Source of the DNA: a virus
DNA length: 64,000 nt
IMG/VR virus record: IMGVR_UViG_3300011390_000002
Span: 3,719 to 67,718 of that record
Direction: 5' to 3' (one strand)
The first letter of the stretch is position 1, and each line of letters begins with the position of its first letter. This document shows positions 6,590-21,238 of the stretch, piece by piece. The position numbers and the translations under genes were made by a program. The notes beneath the pieces were generated by a model. The model worked only from the letters and a program-made list of their open reading frames with translations, did not search any database and was not told where the DNA came from.

Positions 6590-7330
6590 TCAGTTCTTCC
6601 GTTGTTTCAGACGTTCCGTTATGACGGCAATCATCAACGCCAAAATCAAGTAACCAGAAAGTGCTTGGACCGCCGCGACAGGCCGCGCGAGCGGGGTAGG
6701 GGTGAAATCGCCATAGCCGACCGTGGTCAAGGTCATGATGCTGAAGTAGAGGGACGTCGGAAGATCATGGCAGACTGGACTGCATTCATTCGCAGGACCG
6801 TTTATGCCGAGGAAAGAATAGATACAAGCAAACATGAAAGTGAGGCAAAGAACCTGAAACAGCACTGCTGGGATCGGGACGGGCTCCACTTCCGGCTTTG
6901 CGGGACTTAGACCGGCAACGATAGTTCGGGCGGCCCAAAAAACGCTCATACCTGACGAGAAGATGAGCACACACAGCATGCGCACGCTGGGGCTACTACT
7001 CCAACTGTCAAATGTCAGTATCTGTCCGTGCTGGAGCGGGCTATGGAACAGTCCTAGGCCAAAAGCCGCCCCCCACAAGACGGTCGTGTCGGCCACCCAA
7101 GCGGGGGTCTTCAATATTCTCGTGAGAATCCAATGGGTGATGAAGAAAATGCCCAATGAGAAGATGGACGACGCATCCCTGACTAACTGCACATGGGAAG
7201 ACGCAAGTCCGGCAAGGAAAAGGTGGAGCGATGAAAAGTAACTGTCGTTCATGTCGGTGAGCAAGCTGTTAGCAGCTAGGAGCGTTTCAGCCAGAAGCCG
7301 AGCAGAGTCCCGACCGCGCCGATAGCCCAC
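6590..7330 (-). CDS. potassium channel family protein (Ion_trans_2)
   Basis: SLYFSIMTLTTVGYGDFTP selectivity filter between TM helices; start uncertain. Confidence 0.85.
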   Translation of the reverse strand: MGYRRGRDSARLLAETLLAANSLLTDMNDSYFSSLHLFLAGLASSHVQLVRDASSIFSLGIFFITHWILTRILKTPAWVADTTVLWGAAFGLGLFHSPLQHGQILTFDSWSSSPSVRMLCVLIFSSGMSVFWAARTIVAGLSPAKPEVEPVPIPAVLFQVLCLTFMFACIYSFLGINGPANECSPVCHDLPTSLYFSIMTLTTVGYGDFTPTPLARPVAAVQALSGYLILALMIAVITERLKQRKN

Positions 7331-10859: not shown

Positions 10860-11234
10860 GTCCGCGCTTCCTTATACAGCCGCAGCCCCGCAGCACATTC
10901 ACGAAATGTCCCCGTCAGGTCGCCATGTTAAATTTGGGGTCTTACCCACGAGGCATATATGCTGGCTCGTCTGAACGCTTATTCCAAAGGCACCTCACGC
11001 GATGGGATGCAGACATGGCACTTCGATATCGACGTTCGCGATTCGGGCACGCCTCTGTTTGTTGAGACGATCTCGCTCGAGGCAGTCACCCTGATTGCCG
11101 ACGCAAACAAGCAGGGTCCGCTCTACCAACTCTGTCGAGCAATCCGCGACGCGGAAGAAGGGCGCTATGAGGCGCTTGTGGGGACCGAGTTCGGCGTCGA
11201 GTAGCGTCGAGTCCGCGCTTCCTTATACAGCCGC
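10860..11234 (+). repeat. 24-bp direct repeats flanking a single small ORF
   Basis: GTCCGCGCTTCCTTATACAGCCGC at 10860-10883 and 11211-11234. Confidence 0.8.
10959..11204 (+). CDS. hypothetical protein
   Basis: GAGG RBS, 81 aa. Confidence 0.65.
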   Translation: MLARLNAYSKGTSRDGMQTWHFDIDVRDSGTPLFVETISLEAVTLIADANKQGPLYQLCRAIRDAEEGRYEALVGTEFGVE

Positions 11235-11274
11235 GCTTCCTATACTTGGTTGTGATCCGACCTGGAGCGCTGAC

Positions 11275-12024
11275 ATGGCTGAGCCGCAAAACGACGAACG
11301 CAAGGCTGTAGAACCGACGTCGGCAGTTCCAAAGACACGCCGCTTCGCTTGGCTCACTTTTCATTTCTTCGTGGACGTCACGACGCTGCTCGCGTCGATC
11401 GCCACCGTGATCGCACTCATTTTCCTTATTCACGATCGCCGCGATCAAGCCAATATTGCCGCGTGGACCCTGTTGCAGACCTATCTGCAACAGGAGCATC
11501 GAGCGCAATTTAATCAAGGGCAGAGCTTCGCCCTCGAGACATTAGCGAGTCATGGAATAGATCTCCACGATATTGATGCGCATGGCATTGTGCTTGCTGA
11601 CACCAATTTGCGCGCAGTAGACGCTGAGGAAGCATCGTTCGAGCATGCGCAATTGGTGGGGGTCGACTTGTGGAGCGCAGCGCTAAATGGTTCCAATTTT
11701 AAAAAAAGCGATATGTATTCCTGTAATTGCCGTTACGCCTCATTTTCGAATGCAAATTTGACGGGCGCTTCATTCAGAGGAGGCGATTATCGGGATGCCG
11801 ATTTTGGATTTGCCGATGTATCAGATATGACATTGGCGGCAAACCAGGTGGACCAAGACGCATTCAGAAACTCATGCAACCGACCGGGACATCCGCCTCA
11901 CGCCTTTTCGAGCGTTCCTATTGACTCTCCAAAGCATCCTCAAAGCGACGCGTGTCTCAAGGTTTGGAGTAAATCGTGGGACGCATTGGCGAAGGCGCCG
12001 GACGCAAATGCGGGTGGGGAGTAA
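11275..12024 (+). CDS. membrane-anchored pentapeptide-repeat protein
   Basis: TM helix followed by A(D/N)L/ASF-type pentapeptide repeats. Confidence 0.75.
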   Translation: MAEPQNDERKAVEPTSAVPKTRRFAWLTFHFFVDVTTLLASIATVIALIFLIHDRRDQANIAAWTLLQTYLQQEHRAQFNQGQSFALETLASHGIDLHDIDAHGIVLADTNLRAVDAEEASFEHAQLVGVDLWSAALNGSNFKKSDMYSCNCRYASFSNANLTGASFRGGDYRDADFGFADVSDMTLAANQVDQDAFRNSCNRPGHPPHAFSSVPIDSPKHPQSDACLKVWSKSWDALAKAPDANAGGE

Positions 12025-12605: not shown

Positions 12606-12902
12606 TCACTTGAGGCTTTCGAGATACGCCTTCTGCTCAGGCGTGAGTGTGGCGAGCTTTTCAATGAGCGCGCTCTTGGTGGTGCGGGTGCTGGTCTTGG
12701 CCTCCCGGCGTGCGTTCAGGTCCGGCGTAAGCGCCTTCAGGTCGGCCTTGTCGATCAGCACTTCAAGCACCTGGCCCTGGCTGATTTTGAACTGCTTGGC
12801 GATCGTGCTCAGACGTGCTTGGGCAGCCTTGTCGAGAATCACGGTGTAGCGTTTGGTGGTCTCTGAACCTGTATGGGGTTGTGCTTGTGTCATGTCTCTC
12901 AT
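12606..12902 (-). CDS. ribbon-helix-helix (CopG/Arc-like) regulator
   Basis: RYTVILDKAAQARLSTIAKQFKISQGQVLEVLI beta-alpha-alpha pattern; palindrome at 12914-12936 upstream. Confidence 0.65.
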   Translation of the reverse strand: MRDMTQAQPHTGSETTKRYTVILDKAAQARLSTIAKQFKISQGQVLEVLIDKADLKALTPDLNARREAKTSTRTTKSALIEKLATLTPEQKAYLESLK

Positions 12903-13190
12903 GGAATCGGTTAACGTGTAAAAGTGTTTTGCACGTAAATTATAGTTAGGTGCTTGCTTATTACACGAAGAAAATGCCCGCGGTGCGCATTCTAAGAGGT
13001 CTGTTCAAACGCCGCTTCGACGCCATCCCGGGCAAACCGAAAAGGCAAGCGTTAGGCAATGGCGCTGTCGTCTGCACGACGTTGCAGCCATCGGCTTGCA
13101 ATGATATACAGTCGGGCGGAATACGCCGAATTTCGAGGTTGTCGGCGTGATTTCGAGGGTCAAAAAATCTACTAAAACGGGAAAAGCAGT

Positions 13191-15287
13191 ATGGCGAGCG
13201 CGACTGTCGAACAATTTGCTAGCGAACTAAAAATGACGCCGCAAGGCCTTTTGGATCGTCTGCATTTGGCAGGTGTGGTTAAAACATCCGCGAAAGAGCC
13301 CATTTTGGACGCCGACAAGCAGAAGTTGCTCGAATATTTCAGAAAAGAGCACATACCGGACGATCGCGAAAAAATTATACTCACAAGGCAGACACCGAAC
13401 GGCCGCGCTAGATCAACGAAAGTTGAAATACGCAAGAAAAGAGTTTTTGTGAGGACTGCCGAACTGATTGGGTCGATAGAGCAAAGAACGAAAGGTATCG
13501 ATGTAGCGGTAACGGACGTGGCGATAGCGAGTCTTAGTCCCGACGCCGGATTGACTTCAGGAAAAAAGATACGCTGGAGTAAGCTTGATTCAGTCGAAAT
13601 TTCGAACTTTAAGGCAATCGACCGACTGACTGTGCCTCTCGCTGAGGTTACCATTCTAGTAGGGCCAAATGGCTCAGGCAAATCGTCCGTCCTGCAAGCA
13701 ATCCACTGGGCTGCGCGGGCAGCTAGCTATATCCCCCCTGGAGTCCAAACTGAAGTCGTATCCTTCGAGCGACTGGACTACTCGCCGTCGAGTGAACCAC
13801 TGAAAACAGCGCACAAGAAGGAGCTTTCATCGGATCGAAATTCTGATCCGACAACTGTGATTTTTAATCATTTTTTTACAAGCGACGGATCTCCGTCCGT
13901 TGCAACCATAAAGATCTGGGCGGCACGAGTCTCCGCAGGCATATCGGTAAACATCGAAGGCGGTGCTGCTGTCACCCCCTTCAAACAACGAGAAGAACTA
14001 ATTACCGCCTACATACCAGGGCTGGCAGGACTGTCGGAGCAGGAGACACTTCTTGTCCAACCGTTGCTTCGTCGACAAGCGGCTGGTGGCAACGCGGGTG
14101 GAGTTCTGCGAAACATCTTGTTTAATATCGCTAGTCGCCAACCAGGCGAAGCAAATAATGACCCAGCGATCCAGCGGGTCAGGCGCTTGAACGAACTCGT
14201 TCAGATTATTCATCCCGGGGTATCGCTCGAGGTTAGCTTCAACGATCGAGAAGACATCAATATCCAGGCAGCGTTCGACGACAATTTGCTCTCCGGTGTC
14301 AAGCGGCCTTTGGAGACAGCAGCGACCGGCGTTCTGCAGGTTGTGCAAATATTTGCTTATTTGATTTTGTTTCGGCCCAAGTTGCTACTTGTTGACGAGC
14401 CTGACGCACACTTGCATCCCGACAAACAGGAACGTTTGATAGAAGCACTTGAAAAAGCCGCTAACGAGTTTGAAGTCCAGGTAATACTGACGACTCACAG
14501 CCCACACATAGTTAGGGCCGCCTCGCCTACTGCTAACCTCTTATGGGTCAAGCAAGGTCAGGTGTTTCAGCAACAGGACGACAATATTCGCGCGCTCTTA
14601 GGGTGGGGCGGTCTCGACAAGAAAATTCTCTTTTTTGTTGAAGATGAAAATGATCACGCGATCAGAGCAATATTGCGCCAGTGGCCCCATTTACACCGAC
14701 AGTTGGGGATTTCCCGATGCTTTGGCGTAGACAATCTTCCCGGAAATGCCTTTCTAAAAGGTCTTTTGTCCGGCGATTCGTTTGACGTGAAGGTCGTCAT
14801 TCACCGCGACCGGGATTTTATGACGTCGAAAGAGTGCAAAATGTGGGCTCAGCGCTATACCGAAGACGGTGTTGCTGTATGGATCACTGAACGTTCGGAT
14901 GCTGAAGCCTATTTTTGCGAGTCGGAATACTTGAGCTGCTTATACAACGTATCTACTGATATTGCTGGTGAATGGATACGCGAAGCCGCGCTCAAATGCA
15001 GGGAGGCAAAAAAAGTTTTTTTCGACAAACGTAAAGTGTTTATTCGCTTGCTCTACGAACACGGCGGCTCACCCGCGTCGAATGAACTTTGGACGGAAAG
15101 CCTTGAAAATCCCGCCGAAATTGTCCTCGGGAAAACGCTTCACAAAGCGCTAAAATGTGAGGTTAAGGCCGCTGGCCATGACGATAAGCTTCTGGACCGA
15201 TTTGCGATTCCGAAAGGGTATGAAGTTGCATCCGATCTCCGGAAGATTCTCGAAGGCCTCCTCGCTGACGGAAATGACACAAAGTAA
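13191..15287 (+). CDS. IF2 N-terminal domain fused to ABC/AAA_21 ATPase and TOPRIM nuclease (OLD/PARIS-like)
   Basis: residues 1-90 IF2-N-like; GPNGSGKS, LLLVDEPDAHLHP, TTHSP; C-terminal FVED..IHRDRD..DAEAYF; AT-richer DNA. Confidence 0.85.
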   Translation: MASATVEQFASELKMTPQGLLDRLHLAGVVKTSAKEPILDADKQKLLEYFRKEHIPDDREKIILTRQTPNGRARSTKVEIRKKRVFVRTAELIGSIEQRTKGIDVAVTDVAIASLSPDAGLTSGKKIRWSKLDSVEISNFKAIDRLTVPLAEVTILVGPNGSGKSSVLQAIHWAARAASYIPPGVQTEVVSFERLDYSPSSEPLKTAHKKELSSDRNSDPTTVIFNHFFTSDGSPSVATIKIWAARVSAGISVNIEGGAAVTPFKQREELITAYIPGLAGLSEQETLLVQPLLRRQAAGGNAGGVLRNILFNIASRQPGEANNDPAIQRVRRLNELVQIIHPGVSLEVSFNDREDINIQAAFDDNLLSGVKRPLETAATGVLQVVQIFAYLILFRPKLLLVDEPDAHLHPDKQERLIEALEKAANEFEVQVILTTHSPHIVRAASPTANLLWVKQGQVFQQQDDNIRALLGWGGLDKKILFFVEDENDHAIRAILRQWPHLHRQLGISRCFGVDNLPGNAFLKGLLSGDSFDVKVVIHRDRDFMTSKECKMWAQRYTEDGVAVWITERSDAEAYFCESEYLSCLYNVSTDIAGEWIREAALKCREAKKVFFDKRKVFIRLLYEHGGSPASNELWTESLENPAEIVLGKTLHKALKCEVKAAGHDDKLLDRFAIPKGYEVASDLRKILEGLLADGNDTK

Positions 15288-15351: not shown

Positions 15352-16908
15352 TCACGCCACCTTGCGCGTCGCCAACCCCAGGCCCACGAAGTCGAAGTCT
15401 TTGCCCGCGGCCAGGATGTTTTCGGCGAACCCGGGCGTGCCCTCAATGATGGACCGGCGCGCCTGAGCATGCTCTTTCGTGTGCGAATTCCACGGATCAT
15501 CGAAGTCCACGACGAGCGCGCAGTTCGGACCTTTCTTTTTCGCCCGCAGACCACGCCCCACACGCTGGCGAAGCGCAACTTCCGCTTTCCCGCCACCGGC
15601 AAGCACCACCACACCGACGGCCGGCACATCCACACCGACGTCCAGAATCGTGGTGCCGATCAACACCTGCGTCTCTCCACTTCCCAGCCGCTTGAGCGCG
15701 GCTTTTCGCTCCTTCGGCTTGTTCTCGCCCTGCAGGAACTCGACCGTGACGCCGCGTTCAGCGAGTTGCTCCCGTAAAAGCTCACCGTGCCGCGTCTGCT
15801 GCACGAGAATCATGACGGGGAGCCCCAGCGCCACCCCGCGGCGCGTCTCGAACACAATTTTCGCGTTGCGCTCAACGTTGTCGACGATGCCGATGCGGTA
15901 GGCAGCCTGCCAGGTCGTGCCCCGGAACAGTTTGGCCGGCTTGTGCTCGAGCGCCACGTATTTGAAGTGGGGTTTCGCGAGGATGCCGCGGTCGATCAGC
16001 ATCTTCTCGCTGATCTTGATCCCGATCGGGCCGAACGCCGCCATGAGACGCATGTTCGACTCTTCATCGTCCTTCATGAAGGGCGTGGCAGTCAGTGCCA
16101 GGCGGTAATGCGCGTTCTTGCAGTGCTTGAGGATGTCGTAGTAGCTGTTGCCCGATGCCTCATGCGCTTCCTCGCCGATCACGAGCTCGAATTTCTCCAA
16201 GAGCGCGATCGTTTTGTTGCGAATGCGCGTTTGCTCGTTTTGCTTCTCAACGTCATCGTCTGGACACGGTTCTTGCAAGCGCGCAACGAGCGTCTGAACC
16301 ATGCCAACGCTCATCATCTTCACCGAGTGACGTTCTTGACCGTCGGCACCGACTGTGACCGTCCCAAACTGCCCGTCGCCAAGCACCGAGCACTGCACGC
16401 CCATCTCTTCGAACGCATCCTTCATCTGATACATGAGGATCGAGCGGGTTGTGAGAAACAGGGTGGGGCGCCGGATACGGGCGAAGGCCATGCGAGCGAT
16501 GCGTGACTTGCCGCCACCGGTTGCGACCTGGGCAATGATCTGGCGATGCTTGACCAGCCGACTGACCACCTCCGGCTGATAGTCGTAGCGCGGATCGTCT
16601 GGGAAGCTGTCGATTTTCGGGTTCTCCGGACCCAGCGGCAGCGGGGCGGCCTTGGCCGCATAGCGCACGTTGTGCCCGGCGCGCCGCAGGTGGCCAGCCA
16701 CGTATTGCACGAAGCCGGCGGGGAAGGTGCCTTTCCTGAAGTCGAAGAAGGAGCTGCGCCCGTCCCAGCCTCCGGTCTTGAACGCCATCACGTTCTCGGC
16801 GCCCGACACCTTGTAGGACACGATGCGCTGAATATCCAATTTCAACGCGCGGTCTGTTTCAACGAGCTTCGCAACGGTCGCGTTATAAGCAATGGTGACG
16901 TTAGACAT
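15352..16908 (-). CDS. superfamily 2 (DEAD/DEAH) helicase
   Basis: ATGGGKS, EEAH, LTATP, QRVGRGLR; start MSNV at 16908. Confidence 0.9.
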   Translation of the reverse strand: MSNVTIAYNATVAKLVETDRALKLDIQRIVSYKVSGAENVMAFKTGGWDGRSSFFDFRKGTFPAGFVQYVAGHLRRAGHNVRYAAKAAPLPLGPENPKIDSFPDDPRYDYQPEVVSRLVKHRQIIAQVATGGGKSRIARMAFARIRRPTLFLTTRSILMYQMKDAFEEMGVQCSVLGDGQFGTVTVGADGQERHSVKMMSVGMVQTLVARLQEPCPDDDVEKQNEQTRIRNKTIALLEKFELVIGEEAHEASGNSYYDILKHCKNAHYRLALTATPFMKDDEESNMRLMAAFGPIGIKISEKMLIDRGILAKPHFKYVALEHKPAKLFRGTTWQAAYRIGIVDNVERNAKIVFETRRGVALGLPVMILVQQTRHGELLREQLAERGVTVEFLQGENKPKERKAALKRLGSGETQVLIGTTILDVGVDVPAVGVVVLAGGGKAEVALRQRVGRGLRAKKKGPNCALVVDFDDPWNSHTKEHAQARRSIIEGTPGFAENILAAGKDFDFVGLGLATRKVA

Positions 16909-17548
16909 TGCCGATCTCCTCGAAGTGTTGTTGAAGTCGTTTGCGAAGCGCGCTCTCGTTCCAGCCAAACTCTTTCGCGATCACCCTCAAGCCAGCGAGC
17001 CGCTTGGGGTTCGCGAAGCGCTTGGCAATCTCTGCGACCCCCTCCCTTGTCATGCGCGGCGCAGCAACCTCGAAGAGCTTTTCGACCGGGTATCCCTTCG
17101 CGAACCGCCCGTAGACGGTCGGGAAAGGCAGATTGAATTCTTGAGCCCACGCGGAAAGAGTTTGGCTGCGTCCTTCGAGTTCAATGACGATATTGTTCCG
17201 GCGATTGTTCGCTTGCTGCTTTGCCGTCGCCCAGCGGCAGTTGTCAGGTTTATAGCCTTCATTGACGCGCTCCCGGTCGAGCGTCATGCCTTCCGGCGCC
17301 TCGCCCATGTCGGCGAGGAAGTTCTCGAAACTCATCCATCGCTCACAAATCCCGATGCCGCGGCCGCCGTAGTCGGCGAAGCCGGCATGCTTACTGTTTA
17401 AGCACCGGCCCTTCATGTTCACCCACGCCCGATAAGTCTTATTGTCGCCCGCCATCCCATGCACAAACTTGTGGTGCCGAGAGCTTTCTTCCGTAGTCGC
17501 CATTTCTGATTTGCCATCCAGGTTTAGTTGGCGTAAAGTATAAGTCAA
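16901..17548 (-). CDS. HNH-type homing endonuclease-like protein
   Basis: YRAWVNMKGRC..YGGRGI..W..FENFLADMG..TLDRE..N..Y..DNCRWAT..QANNRR. Confidence 0.85.
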   Translation of the reverse strand: MTYTLRQLNLDGKSEMATTEESSRHHKFVHGMAGDNKTYRAWVNMKGRCLNSKHAGFADYGGRGIGICERWMSFENFLADMGEAPEGMTLDRERVNEGYKPDNCRWATAKQQANNRRNNIVIELEGRSQTLSAWAQEFNLPFPTVYGRFAKGYPVEKLFEVAAPRMTREGVAEIAKRFANPKRLAGLRVIAKEFGWNESALRKRLQQHFEEIGNV

Positions 17549-17581: not shown

Positions 17582-18235
17582 ATGGGTAAGCCCCAAATCA
17601 AGTCGATCGAAGTAGACCCCCGGTCGCTCAAGCCCAACGTTTGGAATACCAACGTGGTCGCGCCTGACGACGAGGCCAAGATCGATGCGAGCCTCGCGCG
17701 GCTGGGCATGTTCAAGCCCATCATCGTGCGTGAGCTTGCCGACGGCACTCTCGAGATCCTCGGTGGCGCACACCGCCGTGATTCAGCGATCCGACTTGGT
17801 CACGACACCGTGCCGGTCATGAACCTCGGGCGCATTGACGATCAGCGCGCCAAAGAGATCGGTCTTGTCGACAACGCTCGCTACGGCAACGACGACACGA
17901 TTCGCCTCGCAGAGCTGCTCGACGGCATGGGCAGCCCCGATGACCTCGCAGCCTTCCTGCCCTATACCGACGCTGACTTCGCTTCAATCTTCTCTTCAGT
18001 GAATATAGCGTTGGATGATTTAGATATACCGGACGATGACGCGGCCCCAAGCCCGTTACCCAAGGAAGCCGCGGTTCAAACCCATCAGATCATGCGGTTC
18101 AAGGTGCCTGTCGAAGACGTCGGCGCCGTCACGGACCTCATCGAAGCCACCATGAAGGCCCAGCGGTTCACCGAGGATGACTCGTTGAGCAACGCCGGCG
18201 CCGCTCTCGTTCACCTGCTCACATCCGGCAAATGA
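17582..18235 (+). CDS. ParB/Srx N-terminal domain protein
   Basis: LKPNVWNTN..KPIIVR..ILGGAHR. Confidence 0.85.
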   Translation: MGKPQIKSIEVDPRSLKPNVWNTNVVAPDDEAKIDASLARLGMFKPIIVRELADGTLEILGGAHRRDSAIRLGHDTVPVMNLGRIDDQRAKEIGLVDNARYGNDDTIRLAELLDGMGSPDDLAAFLPYTDADFASIFSSVNIALDDLDIPDDDAAPSPLPKEAAVQTHQIMRFKVPVEDVGAVTDLIEATMKAQRFTEDDSLSNAGAALVHLLTSGK

Positions 18236-18429
18236 AATTTTCCTTCTGTCGCACCTGCGTGAATCTCGAATACGACCCGCTCCAGTGCCGGACCTGTGAC
18301 GAGGGTTCCAACTATGAAAACAACGGCGAGGAAGACGAATACGACGCGGACCTGCAAAAGCTGCAGGCGCTCGATAAGTCCGACGAAGAAGACCAACCCA
18401 CGATCTGGCTGGAGCTCGAAGCCGCATGA
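18232..18429 (+). CDS. small Zn-finger acidic protein
   Basis: CRTC..CRTC; overlaps both neighbours by 4 nt. Confidence 0.6.
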   Translation: MKFSFCRTCVNLEYDPLQCRTCDEGSNYENNGEEDEYDADLQKLQALDKSDEEDQPTIWLELEAA

Positions 18430-19070
18430 ACGAATTCAAACCCACCCTCAAGCCAGTTGACTGGCTCAAGCCTTACGAGCTGAACGCCAAGACTCATGAC
18501 GACGCGCAAGTGAAGAAGATTGCCGCGTCCATCGAGCAGTTCGGCTGGAACACCGCCATCGTCGTGGAAGCCGATGGCACGATCATCGCGGGTCACGGCC
18601 GGCGGCTGGCGGCCATTTCCCTGGGTCAGACCCACGTTCCGGTCGTGGTTCGCGATGACCTGTCGAAAGAAGAGGCGCGGGCGCTGCGCCTGGCGGATAA
18701 CCGGGTTGCGCTCTCCGAGATCGACGCACGCGTTCTGCAGGAAGAACTCGCCTCGCTCGACTTTGACCTCGCAGGCATTTTCGATGCCAAAGAACTCGAC
18801 TTCATGACGGCGGACCTGAGCGATGTGAACGAGACACCGTTCGTCGAAGACTTGGACGCTGAGGTGCGCGAACAGGCGGCAGAGACGACCAAGAAGCTCG
18901 AGGCGACCGATGCGCGCGATGTGAAGCTCGATAAGGCGCTGGGCTTCAAGGCAATCACCGGCCGCGACGAAAAGCACGTGGCGCGCTTCATGGCGCTGAT
19001 CGAAGAACAGACTGGGTTGACGGGTGCCGACGCCTTTGTCGCGCATGCGAAAGCCGTGGTTTCCGCTTAA
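18426..19070 (+). CDS. ParB/Srx N-terminal domain protein
   Basis: LKPYELNAKTH..SIEQFGW..IIAGHGRRLAA..LRLADNR. Confidence 0.88.
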   Translation: MNEFKPTLKPVDWLKPYELNAKTHDDAQVKKIAASIEQFGWNTAIVVEADGTIIAGHGRRLAAISLGQTHVPVVVRDDLSKEEARALRLADNRVALSEIDARVLQEELASLDFDLAGIFDAKELDFMTADLSDVNETPFVEDLDAEVREQAAETTKKLEATDARDVKLDKALGFKAITGRDEKHVARFMALIEEQTGLTGADAFVAHAKAVVSA

Positions 19071-19599: not shown

Positions 19600-20262
19600 A
19601 TGACCACTTACACCATCAACCAACGCTTCACCGCCTCGGTTGAACGCACTGACCGGGTGCTGGAGGTCGCGGAAGCCTTCGGCCTGGGTCTGGACGACAA
19701 GGAATTCGTCGTTTTCGACAACCAGCCAATCGACATTCACCCGGGCGACGTCTGCTACGTGACGGGCCAGTCCGGCTCGGGCAAATCGACGGTCCTGCGC
19801 GAGCTCAAAAAGCTCATGGTCGAGGAGGGGCTCTCGGTCTGCGACATCGACGCGATCGAGTTCCAGGACAAGCCGCTCATCAACCAGATCGGCACCGATA
19901 CGAACGACGCGCTGCGCCTGCTCGCGATTGCGGGCATCTCGGACGCCTACCTGTATATCCGCAAGCCCACGGAGCTCTCGGACGGCCAGCGCTACCGGTT
20001 TCGGCTTGCCAAGCTCATCGAGTCCCGCGCCCAAGTCTGGGTAGCGGACGAATTCATGGCTGTCGTCGATCGCGACACCGCCAAGAACATCGCTTTCAAC
20101 ATGCAGAAGGTCGCTCGCACCGCCGGCGCCACGCTGCTCGTTGCCACCACCCATACGGATTTGCGTCAGGACTTAGCCCCAACTCTCTATATTGAAAAAC
20201 GGTATAGGGAAAAAATCGAAATCTGTTATTCGCCCGAGGGCTACCGGGATTCGGGGTGCTAA
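19600..20262 (+). CDS. stand-alone ABC-family ATPase
   Basis: GQSGSGKST, LSDGQRYR, WVADEF, TTH. Confidence 0.9.
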   Translation: MTTYTINQRFTASVERTDRVLEVAEAFGLGLDDKEFVVFDNQPIDIHPGDVCYVTGQSGSGKSTVLRELKKLMVEEGLSVCDIDAIEFQDKPLINQIGTDTNDALRLLAIAGISDAYLYIRKPTELSDGQRYRFRLAKLIESRAQVWVADEFMAVVDRDTAKNIAFNMQKVARTAGATLLVATTHTDLRQDLAPTLYIEKRYREKIEICYSPEGYRDSGC

Positions 20263-20264
20263 GC

Positions 20265-20876
20265 ATGAGTAAGAAGATTGGAATCTATCGCATCACCAAC
20301 ACGGTTGACGGCAAGTTCTACGTCGGCAGTTCGGTGGACATGGACAAGCGGTTTTATCTGCACAAGAACCAGCTTGGGCACGGCAAGCATCGCAACAGCC
20401 GACTGCAACGAGCCTGGTTGAAGCATGGCGCCGACGCATTCCAATTCGAAATAGTGGAGCTGGTCTCGAGCCGTGACGAATTGCTCGCGACTGAGCAACG
20501 CTGGCTCGACGAAACGAGGGCGGTAGAGCTTGGATACAACATCTGCTCGACAGCCCATCACCGGCTCGGCGTGAAAGCAACAGCGGAAACATTGGCTCGA
20601 ATGGCCGCCGCTCAACTGGGTAAGCGACACACCGAGGAGACGCGTGCGCGCATGTCGGCGGCAAAGACCGGGCAACCGAAGCCGCCTCGCACAGCAGAAC
20701 ATCGCGCAAAGATCGGCCTATCCCGGAAGGGCAAGGCCGCTTCGGAAGAAACGCGAGCGAAGTTGAGGGCTGCCCGTGCAAGACGCGCCCCCATGAGCCA
20801 AGAAACCCGAGAAAAGATGTCCGCCTCCATTCGAGCAGCACTGGCGGCAAAGAAAGCCCTATCACTGAATACCTGA
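20265..20876 (+). mobile_element. GIY-YIG homing endonuclease with NUMOD3-like repeats
   Basis: GIYRITN..KFYVGSS; repeated H/EETRARMS motifs. Confidence 0.9.
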
Positions 20877-20887
20877 AGGATACAAAG

Positions 20888-21238
20888 ATGCCGGTCATTA
20901 ACCCCACGAAACACACGTTCGACTTCGCCGTGCGGGAGAAGTCGAAGGAAGAAGCGGTCGTTGTCGCATTCACGGCGCCCTGGTGCGGTCCCTGCCGCGC
21001 ACTCAAGCCCAAGCTTGCGGCGCTTGCGGACGAGTGGGGTTTCACGCTCGCCGTGGTCGATGCGTCGGTTGAGCCGGAGCTGGCCGCGCTCTTTGGTGTG
21101 CGCGCTGTGCCGACAGTCCTCACGATCGAAAACGAGCTGGTGCGCGGGCGTTTCACGGGCGGGCGCACGGATGAAGCGATGCGCGAGTATTTCGCCTCGT
21201 TTGGCCTGAACGAAACCCAGATCAAGCTGGAGTTCTGA
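20888..21238 (+). CDS. thioredoxin
   Basis: FTAPWCGPC..FGVRAVPT. Confidence 0.9.
   Translation: MPVINPTKHTFDFAVREKSKEEAVVVAFTAPWCGPCRALKPKLAALADEWGFTLAVVDASVEPELAALFGVRAVPTVLTIENELVRGRFTGGRTDEAMREYFASFGLNETQIKLEF

What the first reader, a model, noticed from the sequence alone, without database searches (positions are those of the whole stretch)
13191..15287. Translation initiation factor IF2 N-terminal domain fused to an ABC-ATPase/TOPRIM nuclease: candidate novel decoy- or ribosome-targeted defence system
Seen: residues 1-90 (MASATVEQFASELKMTPQGLLDRLHLAGVVK..DKQKLLEYFRKEH..KIILTR..GRARSTKVEIRKKRVFV) follow the betaproteobacterial IF2 N-terminus (MAS..V.QFA.ELKM..LL..L..AGV.K..DK..LL..RK.H..KI.LTR..VE.RKKR.FV). 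A short linker leads to an ABC/AAA_21 ATPase (Walker A GPNGSGKS, DEPD, H-loop) and a TOPRIM-like domain (VED, DRD, EAY). The gene is stand-alone, AT-richer and inserted at a variable locus. Established: ATPase+TOPRIM architecture defines OLD, GajA and PARIS (AriA/AriB) anti-phage nucleases, AriB cleaves tRNA, and IF2-N contacts the ribosome. Inference: the captured IF2-N either acts as an integrated decoy that senses phage proteins attacking IF2, or tethers the nuclease to ribosomes/initiator tRNA. Either would be an unusual host-factor-mimic immune design carried by a phage against competitors.
Basis: partly seen in the sequence, partly recalled or inferred. Interest (0 to 1): 0.9.

Follow-up and report, generated by a model that had tools for sequence, protein, structure and literature searches.

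The report
OLD-type nuclease carrying IF2's NusA-binding module
A T5-like phage has picked up a stand-alone OLD/PARIS-type ATPase-nuclease gene whose first ~90 residues are a copy of the N-terminal module of host translation factor IF2, a module shown in E. coli to bind the transcription factor NusA rather than the ribosome; this may be an immune nuclease coupled to the host transcription machinery.

Summary
ORF 13191-15287 (+) encodes 698 aa. Residues 1-90 are homologous to IF2 Domain I (42-49% identity to betaproteobacterial IF2s, E to 9e-13). A ~40-aa disordered linker follows, then an ABC ATPase (131-445) and a Toprim-type domain (446-698) closest to AriB of PARIS and OLD C-terminal regions. 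The gene is a ~2.4-kb, low-GC insertion absent from 80 related ~110-kb phages.

The family is not new to databases: dozens of Burkholderia, Pseudomonas and related orthologues carry NCBI names such as 'IF-2 N-terminal domain-containing protein'. I found no paper describing it. IF2 Domain I is reported to bind NusA (KH2/AR1) and not noticeably ribosomes, so a NusA tether or sensor is better supported than ribosome targeting.

New here:
- The N-module matches each host lineage's own IF2 (AU test rejects one clade, p=7e-6; 89% identity in Ideonella), while the ATPase-nuclease cores form one clade. This implies repeated capture or gene conversion from infB.
- The same module sits on other proteins, including a MAD3-like ATPase beside a methyltransferase.

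Defence function, NusA binding and nuclease substrate remain inferred. A complex prediction gave no verdict.

The parts
12903..13190 (.). Upstream non-coding part of the inserted block, between the start of the conserved 98-aa ORF (12606-12902, minus strand) and the start codon.
   Evidence: Nucleotide synteny with relatives stops at ~12851 and resumes at ~15350. No sigma-70-like promoter was found on the + strand here.
13191..15287 (+). Whole gene: a 698-aa IF2-Domain-I / ABC ATPase / Toprim fusion protein (P0001), stop codon included.
   Evidence: ORF and translation. The same gene is called on ENA contig k141_128 (118,945 bp) and on a Logan contig. There are more than 1000 homologues.
13191..13349 (+). 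Residues 1-53: the IF2 N1 sub-domain (Pfam IF2_N).
   Evidence: IF2_N matches 1-52 over the full profile. pLDDT is ~90 in the full-length model. The module profile hits 1ND9, E. coli IF2N, at E 2e-8.
13359..13460 (+). Residues 57-90: the beta-strand segment KIILTR...KVEIRKKRVFV (Pfam IF2_assoc). Together with N1 it is the NusA-contacting part of E. coli IF2 Domain I.
   Evidence: IF2_assoc matches 70-88. Alignment to IF2s. Strands at 62-67, 73-81 and 84-87 are modelled at low confidence. The NusA role comes from PMC12297416.
13461..13580 (+). Residues 91-130: a disordered linker containing the conserved motif VTDVAIASLSP (107-117).
   Evidence: pLDDT is 33-59. The motif is shared with betaproteobacterial family members that lack the IF2 module.
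13581..14525 (+). Residues 131-445: ABC-type ATPase, with Walker A at 13662-13685, Walker B and catalytic Glu at 14382-14405, and the H-loop His436.
   Evidence: Pfam AAA_15 8e-30 and AAA_21 2e-27. PADLOC NsnB 9e-32, AriA 1e-31, Old 2.5e-25. Invariant residues G158-S166, D402, E403 and H436. Foldseek matches to OLD, GajA and PtuA.
14526..15284 (+). Residues 446-698: Toprim-type nuclease domain plus a C-terminal helical bundle. Acidic motifs: E484-D485-E486 (14640-14648), D540-x-D542 (14808-14816), D570-x-E572 (14898-14906).
   Evidence: AF2 model with pLDDT 88 and pTM 0.85. VIA: AriB 8ux9_A Z 8.7 (193 aligned) and 8v46_D Z 7.6; class 2 OLD C-terminal regions Z 5.9; TsOLD Z 5.6; unrelated folds Z 5.0 or less. 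Invariant acidic residues.
15352..16968 (-). Flank only, not part of the system: a conserved UvsW-like phage helicase, convergent with the gene. It marks the right boundary of the insertion.
   Evidence: phrog_16 2e-95; Pfam ResIII and Helicase_C. It is present at 43-86% identity in 80 related phages that lack the target gene.

Best explanation
The gene encodes a stand-alone (class-1-like) member of the OLD/PARIS superfamily.

Anatomy:
- An ABC ATPase acts as sensor or switch.
- It controls a Toprim nuclease whose fold is closest to AriB, the tRNA-cleaving effector of PARIS.
- At the N-terminus, on a ~40-residue flexible tether, sits a copy of IF2 Domain I (the N1 sub-domain plus the following beta-strands).

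Proposed mechanism. In E. coli IF2, this exact piece binds NusA (KH2/AR1) on transcribing RNA polymerase and not the ribosome. The most likely reading is that the module docks the enzyme onto host NusA. It then either places the enzyme at transcription elongation complexes or reports a change in NusA's state. Such a change could be phage antitermination complexes, which are said to be incompatible with IF2 binding, or a shut-off of host transcription. The ATPase would convert that signal into activation of the nuclease, which cuts tRNA or DNA and blocks phage growth, as an abortive or exclusion-type immunity.

Evolution. The module is kept matched to the resident host's own IF2 by repeated capture or gene conversion from infB. 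In this window the gene is a horizontally acquired accessory insertion in a T5-like phage, presumably used against competing phages or for host manipulation.

Shown here: the architecture, the homology, the fold, the insertion, and the host-matched evolution of the module.
Inferred: NusA binding by this protein, the trigger, the substrate and the defence role.
For: - Architecture. Pfam and PADLOC match the ATPase. The full-length model aligns over both domains to the retron Eco8 OLD protein (9lpa_B, 3.4e-14), TsOLD (6p74, 5.9e-13) and GajA.
- Nuclease domain. The C-terminal model's best matches are AriB at Z 8.7 and 7.6, then OLD Toprim regions at Z 5.2-5.9, with unrelated folds at Z 5.0 or less. 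E484/D485/E486, D540/D542, D570/E572 and the Walker motifs are invariant.
- IF2 origin. E reaches 9e-13 against IF2s. The module aligns collinearly to E. coli IF2 1-99. That region is the N1 domain (1-50) plus strands (57-90) that bind NusA, with crosslinks at positions 13, 50 and 88 (PMC12297416).
- Tethering. N1 is confidently folded and the linker is disordered.
- Host matching. Fusion N-termini group with their host lineage's IF2: Pseudomonas with support 99/96, Ideonella at 89% identity over N1, and Burkholderia fusions nearest to Burkholderia IF2. One clade of fusion N-termini is rejected (AU p=6.9e-6). The Ideonella fusion shares 80% nucleotide identity with its own infB over 180 nt. 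The cores of all IF2-N carriers form one clade with support 100/99.
- Accessory, mobile character. Only 1 of 301 Burkholderiales species genomes has a second IF2-N match. There is no conserved neighbour in 19 loci. The insertion sites differ: after rpoD in P. benzopyrenica, beside gyrB in Pandoraea. In the phage it is a ~2.4-kb low-GC insertion absent from 80 relatives.
- The module recurs on other conflict-type proteins. P0175 is a MAD3/LmuB/NsnB-like ATPase lying in an operon behind an Eco57I/N6_Mtase gene.
- Precedent. OLD-family and PARIS Toprim effectors act as abortive nucleases or tRNases (PMC10568477, PMC12409363, bioRxiv 10.64898/2026.07.10.737580).
Against: - No experiment or passing computation links this protein to NusA. 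NusA binding is shown only for E. coli IF2.
- The module in P0001 is only ~50% identical to any IF2 found, and it scores just below Pfam's cut-offs.
- No defence phenotype is known for any member of the family.
- The C-terminal domain matches no Pfam or PADLOC model, and its structural Z-scores are middling.
- Host matching of the module would equally be expected for a decoy.
- The carrier phage appears virulent, which fits classic prophage-borne exclusion less well.
- No promoter or terminator was recognised around the gene.
Confidence: 0.45

Rival explanations
1. Integrated decoy. The IF2-like module mimics the host IF2 N-terminus so that a phage protein attacking or binding IF2 Domain I is caught by the fusion and switches on the nuclease.
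For: The module is kept similar to the resident host's IF2, as a decoy must be. The same N-terminal slot in a related core carries another housekeeping-protein piece, the LigA adenylation domain in P0094. The module also sits on other defence-type proteins.
Against: No phage factor that targets IF2 Domain I came up in the papers read here. [quoted passage not shown] Host matching is explained equally well by the need to bind a host partner.
Confidence: 0.17
2. Ribosome or initiator-tRNA tether. The module brings the nuclease to 30S initiation complexes, where it cuts tRNA or rRNA.
For: The Toprim domain is most like AriB, a tRNase (PMC12409363). IF2 as a whole is a ribosome-binding factor.
Against: [quoted passage not shown] It places ribosome and 50S functions in the later N2 sub-domain and the G/C domains, none of which is present here. 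Isolated Domain I localises with the nucleoid, anti-correlated with ribosomes.
Confidence: 0.08
3. Phage offensive tool. In this virulent T5-like phage the enzyme is used not for immunity but to attack host gene expression. It would be directed to NusA-bearing host transcription complexes to degrade host nucleic acids or tRNAs.
For: The carrier is a T5-like phage with no integrase found in the record. The gene lies among early-region-type small genes and other accessory genes.
Against: Most family members are chromosomal, sporadic, single genes in bacteria. All 80 related phages do without it. The window holds no phage tRNA genes that could replace cleaved host tRNAs.
Confidence: 0.12
4. Housekeeping role, not conflict. 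The protein is a transcription-associated nuclease or ATPase, for example processing R-loops or replication-transcription conflicts, recruited through NusA. This would be analogous to the archaeal OLD homologue Cran1, which acts in the cell cycle.
For: OLD-family ATPases are not always defensive (PMC12796447). In two genomes the gene lies beside core replication or transcription genes, rpoD and gyrB.
Against: The gene is very sparse: 1 of 301 sampled Burkholderiales species. Its insertion sites differ, it is carried by a phage as a low-GC insertion, and it neighbours another AAA_15 ATPase in Pandoraea. All of this is typical of mobile accessory genes.
Confidence: 0.08

Closest known systems
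Class 1 OLD family nucleases (P2 Old, Thermus scotoductus OLD, V. cholerae OLD, E. coli YbjD)
   Same: A single stand-alone gene encodes an N-terminal ABC ATPase followed by a C-terminal Toprim domain. The full-length model aligns to TsOLD 6p74 over both domains. PADLOC Old scores 2.5e-25 and Pfam DUF2813 (the YbjD family) hits the N-terminal part of the ATPase. P2 old is likewise phage-borne.
   Different: This protein has an extra ~130-residue N-terminal region made of IF2 Domain I plus a linker, which I found described for no OLD protein. Its Toprim domain is structurally nearer to AriB than to TsOLD (Z 8.7 against 5.6) and matches no Toprim or DUF4435 sequence model.
PARIS (AriA ATPase + AriB Toprim tRNase), including fused AriAB forms
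   Same: The ATPase matches PADLOC AriA at 1.4e-31. The C-terminal domain's best structural matches are AriB chains 8ux9_A and 8v46_D, aligned over ~195 of 253 residues including the helical part. Its length (698 aa) is like the AriAB profile (694 positions).
   Different: The PADLOC AriAB profile matches only through the ATPase (best stretch 398-445), and no AriB or DUF4435 model hits the C-terminus. It is a single polypeptide, so the release-of-AriB mechanism cannot apply unchanged. No link to Ocr-like DNA mimics is known. The IF2 module is absent from described PARIS systems.
IF2 Domain I (N1 sub-domain plus beta-strands), the NusA-binding module of E. coli IF2-alpha
   Same: It is collinear and homologous over residues 1-90, and nearly all positions conserved among IF2s are kept: V6, A10, L20, L24, A27, G28, D42, K43, L46, L47, K61, V78, E79, R81-K83.
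   Different: It is detached from the IF2 G and C domains and fused to a nuclease. NusA binding is untested here. It evolves faster than the enzyme core: 54% identity against 81% overall with the nearest orthologue.
Plant NLR 'integrated domains' and bacterial guard-type sensors (e.g. P2 Old or retron Ec48 watching RecBCD; nucleoid-associated proteins reused as infection sensors)
   Same: A piece of a host housekeeping protein is built into an immune-type ATPase-effector and is kept matched to the host original.
   Different: This is an analogy of logic only. There is no homology, and the guarded or mimicked process (the NusA-IF2 contact) has not been implicated in phage sensing before, as far as my searches show.

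Membership tests
OLD family nucleases | N-terminal ABC-type ATPase with Walker A, Walker B and catalytic Glu, and H-loop | tested here: met
   Pfam AAA_15 and AAA_21. PADLOC Old, GajA and AriA. Invariant GPNGSGKS, D402/E403 and H436. Foldseek E 1e-12 to 1e-14 against OLD, GajA and PtuA structures.
OLD family nucleases | C-terminal Toprim domain with conserved Glu and DxD acidic motifs | tested here: met
   This was met by fold and motifs, not by sequence model. The top eight structural matches are all OLD-family Toprim regions, at Z 8.7 down to 5.2. E484-E486, D540-x-D542 and D570-x-E572 are invariant. No Pfam or PADLOC hit on 446-698.
OLD family nucleases | ATP hydrolysis and metal-dependent nuclease activity | not testable with these tools
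   Needs biochemistry.
Class 1 OLD (by genetic context) | Single gene with no conserved partner (no UvrD-like helicase, retron RT or separate Toprim gene) | tested here: met
   No neighbour is shared among 19 bacterial loci apart from two sister Pseudomonas species. Contexts differ. In the phage it is a one-gene insertion.
Gabija (class 2 OLD, GajA + GajB) | Adjacent UvrD/PcrA-like helicase GajB that belongs to the system | tested here: not met
   The adjacent helicase is a UvsW-like core phage gene. It is convergent with the target and present in all 80 relatives that lack the target. Bacterial loci show no such helicase.
PARIS (AriA/AriB or fused AriAB) | AriA-type ATPase together with an AriB (DUF4435-type Toprim) effector | tested here: inconclusive
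   The AriA profile scores 1.4e-31, but the NsnB, Old and GajA profiles score similarly. AriB is the best structural match for the C-terminus at Z 8.7. No AriB, AriAB or DUF4435 sequence model covers it.
PARIS | Triggered by phage DNA-mimic anti-restriction proteins (Ocr); tRNA cleavage | not testable with these tools
   Needs phage assays and tRNA sequencing.
Translation initiation factor IF2 | GTPase G domain, domain II, and the C1/C2 fMet-tRNA-binding domains | tested here: not met
   No GTP_EFTU, IF-2 or EF-G_D2 domains are present. Residues 131-698 are ATPase plus Toprim. The NCBI name 'translation initiation factor IF-2' on orthologue P0005 is a mis-annotation.
IF2 Domain I module (IF2_N + IF2_assoc) | Sequence homology to the N1 sub-domain and the following strand segment, at the very N-terminus | tested here: met
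   phmmer to IF2s reaches E 9e-13 and 75 representatives score at E<=1e-10. Pfam scores are just under cut-off in P0001 (24.5 against 25.3; 17.4 against 24), but many orthologues carry both domains in the precomputed lists. N1 is modelled at pLDDT ~90.
IF2 Domain I module | Binds NusA KH2/AR1 | not tested
   This is known only for E. coli IF2 (PMC12297416). No usable computational test was obtained here.

The most novel reading that the evidence does not exclude
The captured IF2 Domain I is a working sensor. On this reading the nuclease, and several unrelated defence proteins carrying the same module, guards the NusA-IF2 contact that links transcription to translation initiation. It would fire when a phage remodels NusA (N-type antitermination or host transcription shut-off) or attacks IF2's N-terminus. 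The module would be continually re-copied from the resident infB to stay matched. That would make it a bacterial counterpart of plant NLR integrated domains, and the first immune system reported to monitor the transcription-translation coupling machinery.
Probability: 0.25. Interest if true: 0.85.

Novelty: new variant of a known kind. Interest (0 to 1): 0.62.

Why it matters
- It adds a new kind of input domain to the OLD/PARIS ATPase-Toprim framework: a piece of an essential host translation factor.
- The module's evolution tracks the host's own gene. This suggests that bacterial immune proteins can recruit and keep refreshing host-protein modules, much as plant NLRs carry integrated domains.
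- It gives an independent, genetically tractable handle on the long-obscure function of IF2 Domain I. If the module works by NusA binding, these fusions are natural reporters of that contact.
- The same module on a MAD3-like ATPase, a coiled-coil membrane protein and a zinc-ribbon/TPR protein points to a wider class of systems wired to the same host node.
- Practically, it corrects database names. These proteins are not IF2.

Tried and rejected
- Complex prediction. I folded B. aenigmatica NusA KH1-AR2 with that genome's own fusion N-module, using alignments A4 and A5. The result was no verdict (score 0.01, mark 0.32), so it counts neither for nor against binding.
- Pfam at E<=10 and PADLOC at E<=1 on the C-terminal 253 aa alone gave no family.
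- Promoter and terminator scan around the gene: nothing on the + strand upstream or downstream beyond chance.
- tRNA scan of the window: none.
- Integrase (PF00589) in the 74-kb virus record: none. The record is only ~69% complete.
- I could not reach the whole genomes of Pseudomonas benzopyrenica and Pandoraea sputorum through loci L088 and L091, because those records are not held. Same-genus IF2s were used instead.
- Search for short split forms of the C-terminal domain: 36 hits. Most come from contigs under about 5 kb or carry the end of the ATPase, so they read as fragments. A few short ORFs on long contigs (P0305, P0315, P0319, P0320) were not examined. No AriB-like stand-alone relatives were seen at this sensitivity.
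- GajB-like role for the neighbouring helicase: rejected, because it is a conserved phage core gene.
- A single ancient capture of the module without later exchange: rejected by the AU test.
- Identifying the phage's host from the module: not possible. The best IF2 match is only 55% identical over N1, to an unnamed metagenomic IF2.
Full report
THE OBJECT

The window lies at 3719-67718 of a 73,874-bp IMG/VR virus record that CheckV rates ~69% complete. ORF 13191-15287 on the + strand encodes a 698-aa protein, P0001. GC is 0.50 across 13-15 kb against 0.56-0.59 in the flanks.

THE N-TERMINUS IS A COPY OF IF2 DOMAIN I

- Residues 1-100 hit bona fide IF2 proteins (856-897 aa, with GTPase and IF-2 domains). 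Identity is 39-49% over 84-95% of the query, and E-values reach 9e-13 in a 5.8-billion-protein database.
- An exhaustive phmmer search over 1.84 billion representatives gave 598 hits at E<=1e-3 and 75 at E<=1e-10. Nearly all begin at residue 1 of the target.
- Pfam IF2_N covers its whole profile on residues 1-52, at 24.5 bits against a cut-off of 25.3. IF2_assoc matches 70-88.
- The alignment shows homology running through both the N1 sub-domain and the segment KIILTR...KVEIRKKRVFV.
- A profile of the module aligns end to end with E. coli IF2 residues 1-99 (3jcj_f) and with the NMR structure of IF2N, 1ND9.
- In the full-length AF2 model, N1 (1-53) is confident at pLDDT ~90. Residues 56-103 contain three low-confidence strands. 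Residues up to 130 are disordered, so the module hangs on a flexible tether.

THE REST IS AN OLD/PARIS-TYPE ATPase-TOPRIM ENZYME

- Residues 131-445 match AAA_15 and AAA_21, and the PADLOC profiles NsnB, AriA, Old, GajA and PtuA.
- The C-terminal 253 residues match no Pfam or PADLOC model.
- A good AF2 model of that domain (pLDDT 88, pTM 0.85) is most similar to AriB of PARIS: 8ux9_A at Z 8.7 with 193 aligned, and 8v46_D at Z 7.6.
- Next come class 2 OLD C-terminal regions (Z 5.9), TsOLD (5.6) and the retron Eco8 OLD protein (5.2). Unrelated Rossmann-like folds score 5.0 or less.
- The full-length model aligns over both domains to the retron Eco8 OLD protein, TsOLD and GajA.
- Invariant across 36 homologues: Walker A, D402/E403, H436, and the acidic groups E484-D485-E486, D540-x-D542 and D570-x-E572. 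This is the Glu plus DxD pattern expected of Toprim.

THE FAMILY

- More than 1000 homologues exist.
- About 690-700-aa members with the IF2 module occur in Burkholderia, Paraburkholderia, Herbaspirillum, Pandoraea, Alcaligenes, Chromobacterium, Ideonella, Pseudomonas and Stutzerimonas.
- NCBI already names several 'translation initiation factor IF-2 N-terminal domain-containing protein'. One (P0005) is wrongly named IF-2, and its start is called 14 codons too late.
- Members of ~600-650 aa, in Alphaproteobacteria, Acidobacteria and some Betaproteobacteria, have unrelated disordered N-termini.
- One member, P0094, carries a LigA adenylation domain in the same position.
- No neighbour is conserved among 19 loci. 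The gene sits after rpoD in P. benzopyrenica, and beside gyrB and another AAA_15 ATPase in Pandoraea.
- Of 301 sampled Burkholderiales species genomes, 278 have one match to the module, which is their IF2. Only the B. aenigmatica genome, the centre of the sample that I had chosen because it carries the fusion, has a second. One of those genomes, G297, is unpublished. It contributes only one IF2 match to this tally.
- By genetic context the family is therefore class-1-like OLD (definitions in PMC10568477).

IN THE PHAGE IT IS AN INSERTION

- The helicase next door (15352-16968, minus strand; UvsW-like) has relatives in 80 viral contigs, many of them 107-116 kb. None of these loci encodes a homologue of the target.
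- In the closest relatives the helicase is followed after ~380 bp by the homologue of the 98-aa ORF at 12606-12902. Here the gap is ~2.5 kb.
- The terminase is ~60% identical to that of Rhizobium phage RHEph10, and more distantly related to T5-like phages of 110-122 kb.
- No integrase was found in the record.
- The same gene lies on a 118,945-bp ENA contig.

WHAT THE MODULE DOES IN IF2

Metelev & Johansson (Nat Commun 2025, PMC12297416) report the following for E. coli IF2-alpha Domain I:
- It is necessary and sufficient to pull down NusA.
- It crosslinks to NusA in vivo from positions 13, 50 and 88.
- It is predicted to contact NusA KH2/AR1 through N1 (1-50) and two strands (57-90).
- It shows nucleoid-like localisation that anti-correlates with ribosomes.
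- The interaction is stated to be incompatible with NusA's antitermination conformation.

The captured segment in P0001 is exactly this piece.

THE MODULE TRACKS THE HOST'S IF2

I collected IF2 N-termini from the very genomes that carry fusions (B. aenigmatica, Burkholderia sp. SRS-W-2-2016, Ideonella MAG2) and from Pseudomonas, Variovorax, Paucibacter and Nitrosomonadaceae.

- Every fusion whose host genus or a close relative of it was represented is closest to that lineage's IF2:
  - Burkholderia and Paraburkholderia fusions, 56-65%.
  - Pseudomonas and Stutzerimonas fusions, 49-55%. They carry the Pseudomonas-type motif AGSK.I.VE.RKKK.
  - The Ideonella fusion, 89% over N1.
- In a maximum-likelihood tree the Pseudomonas IF2s nest inside the Pseudomonas fusions (support 99/96) and the Ideonella pair groups together.
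- The AU test rejects a single clade of fusion N-termini (p=6.9e-6). I had written this hypothesis down before building the tree.
- The Ideonella fusion and infB share 80% nucleotide identity over the first 180 nt.
- By contrast, the ATPase-Toprim cores of all IF2-module carriers form one well-supported clade (100/99), with three nested module-less members.

The simplest account is one ancestral architecture whose module is repeatedly replaced from the resident infB, or several captures into close relatives. Either way, selection keeps the module host-matched.

THE MODULE ON OTHER PROTEINS

Among the best 150 representatives, several are not IF2:
- P0175 (644 aa) is a different ABC ATPase whose best PADLOC hits are mad3, LmuB and NsnB. 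It is encoded directly after a 1283-aa Eco57I/N6_Mtase gene.
- P0183 (423 aa) is a coiled-coil protein with a hydrophobic C-terminus.
- P0144 (1217 aa) has two modules, a zinc ribbon and a TPR-like tail.
- P0213 has what looks by eye like a J-domain.

Their modules group with Comamonadaceae-type or Ideonella/Paucibacter-type IF2s.

MECHANISM

I commit to the following: a stand-alone OLD/PARIS-type abortive or exclusion nuclease whose N-terminal IF2 Domain I docks it to NusA.
- Shown here: the anatomy, the homology, the fold, the mobility and the host-matched evolution.
- Inferred: NusA binding by this protein, what activates it, whether it cuts tRNA (as AriB and P2 Old do; PMC12409363 and bioRxiv 10.64898/2026.07.10.737580) or DNA, and that it restricts phages.

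Rivals are an integrated decoy for a phage factor aimed at IF2, a ribosome tether, a phage offensive tool, and a housekeeping role.

NOVELTY

The sequences are public and auto-named, but seven full-text searches found no description of IF2-module fusions to defence ATPases, nor of NusA as a node watched by immunity. I rate it a new variant of a known kind (the OLD family). The host-tracking IF2/NusA module is the unusual element.

Noticed in passing
window 11095-12024 (+); called 11167-12024 in L097: A pentapeptide-repeat protein (Pfam Pentapeptide, 1.6e-19) lies two genes upstream of the target. None of the 80 related phage loci gave a tblastn hit, so it is a second accessory gene. It could be a DNA-mimic or anti-defence candidate.
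   Followed up: partly
window 6590-7330 (-): A phage-encoded ion-channel-like protein (Pfam Ion_trans_2 1e-14, Ion_trans 1.4e-11).
   Followed up: no
L197:6402-8336 (protein P0175) and L197:2554-6405: A different ABC ATPase (best PADLOC hits mad3, LmuB, NsnB) carries the same IF2_N plus IF2_assoc module. It overlaps the stop codon of a 1283-aa Eco57I/N6_Mtase gene, which looks like a methylation-associated defence operon using the IF2 module.
   Followed up: partly
proteins P0183 (L198:1035-2306), P0144, P0213: Further non-IF2 proteins begin with the IF2 Domain I module. P0183 is a coiled-coil protein with a hydrophobic C-terminus. P0144 is 1217 aa with two copies of the module, a zinc ribbon and a TPR-like tail. 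P0213 is 327 aa with what looks by eye like a J-domain.
   Followed up: partly
protein P0094 (965 aa, JGI metagenome): A member of the same ATPase-Toprim family carries an NAD-dependent DNA ligase adenylation domain (PF01653, PF22745) in the N-terminal slot instead of the IF2 module. In the core tree it groups with module-less alphaproteobacterial-type members.
   Followed up: partly
L086:1501 (B. aenigmatica) versus protein P0005: Orthologue P0005 is named 'translation initiation factor IF-2' in NCBI and its annotated start is 14 codons too far downstream. The open frame begins MASHTVEQFAAELK, matching IF2's own start.
   Followed up: yes
L087 (Ideonella sp. MAG2, G003:C1:1493768-1497064): This genome's IF2-like gene has the N1 sub-domain but lacks the KITLTR...VEVRKKR strand segment. 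It is preceded by a RimP-like ORF rather than nusA. The fusion in the same genome keeps the strand segment. This may be a real variant or a MAG assembly problem.
   Followed up: no
window 13509-13541 (residues 107-117): The linker motif VTDVAIASLSP, just before the ATPase, is conserved among betaproteobacterial family members with or without the IF2 module. Its role is unknown, and it is modelled at low confidence.
   Followed up: no
window 17582-18235, 18426-19070, 19600-20262, 20265-20876, 20888-21238 (+): A run of phage genes downstream of the helicase: two ParB-N-domain proteins, a small ABC-like ATPase (phrog_293), a GIY-YIG/NUMOD3 homing-endonuclease-like gene, and a thioredoxin.
   Followed up: no
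L091:12449-14416 (Pandoraea sputorum): In Pandoraea the IF2-module gene lies tail to tail with a second 655-aa AAA_15 ATPase, next to gyrB-dnaN-dnaA. This may be a small defence islet at the replication origin region.
   Followed up: no
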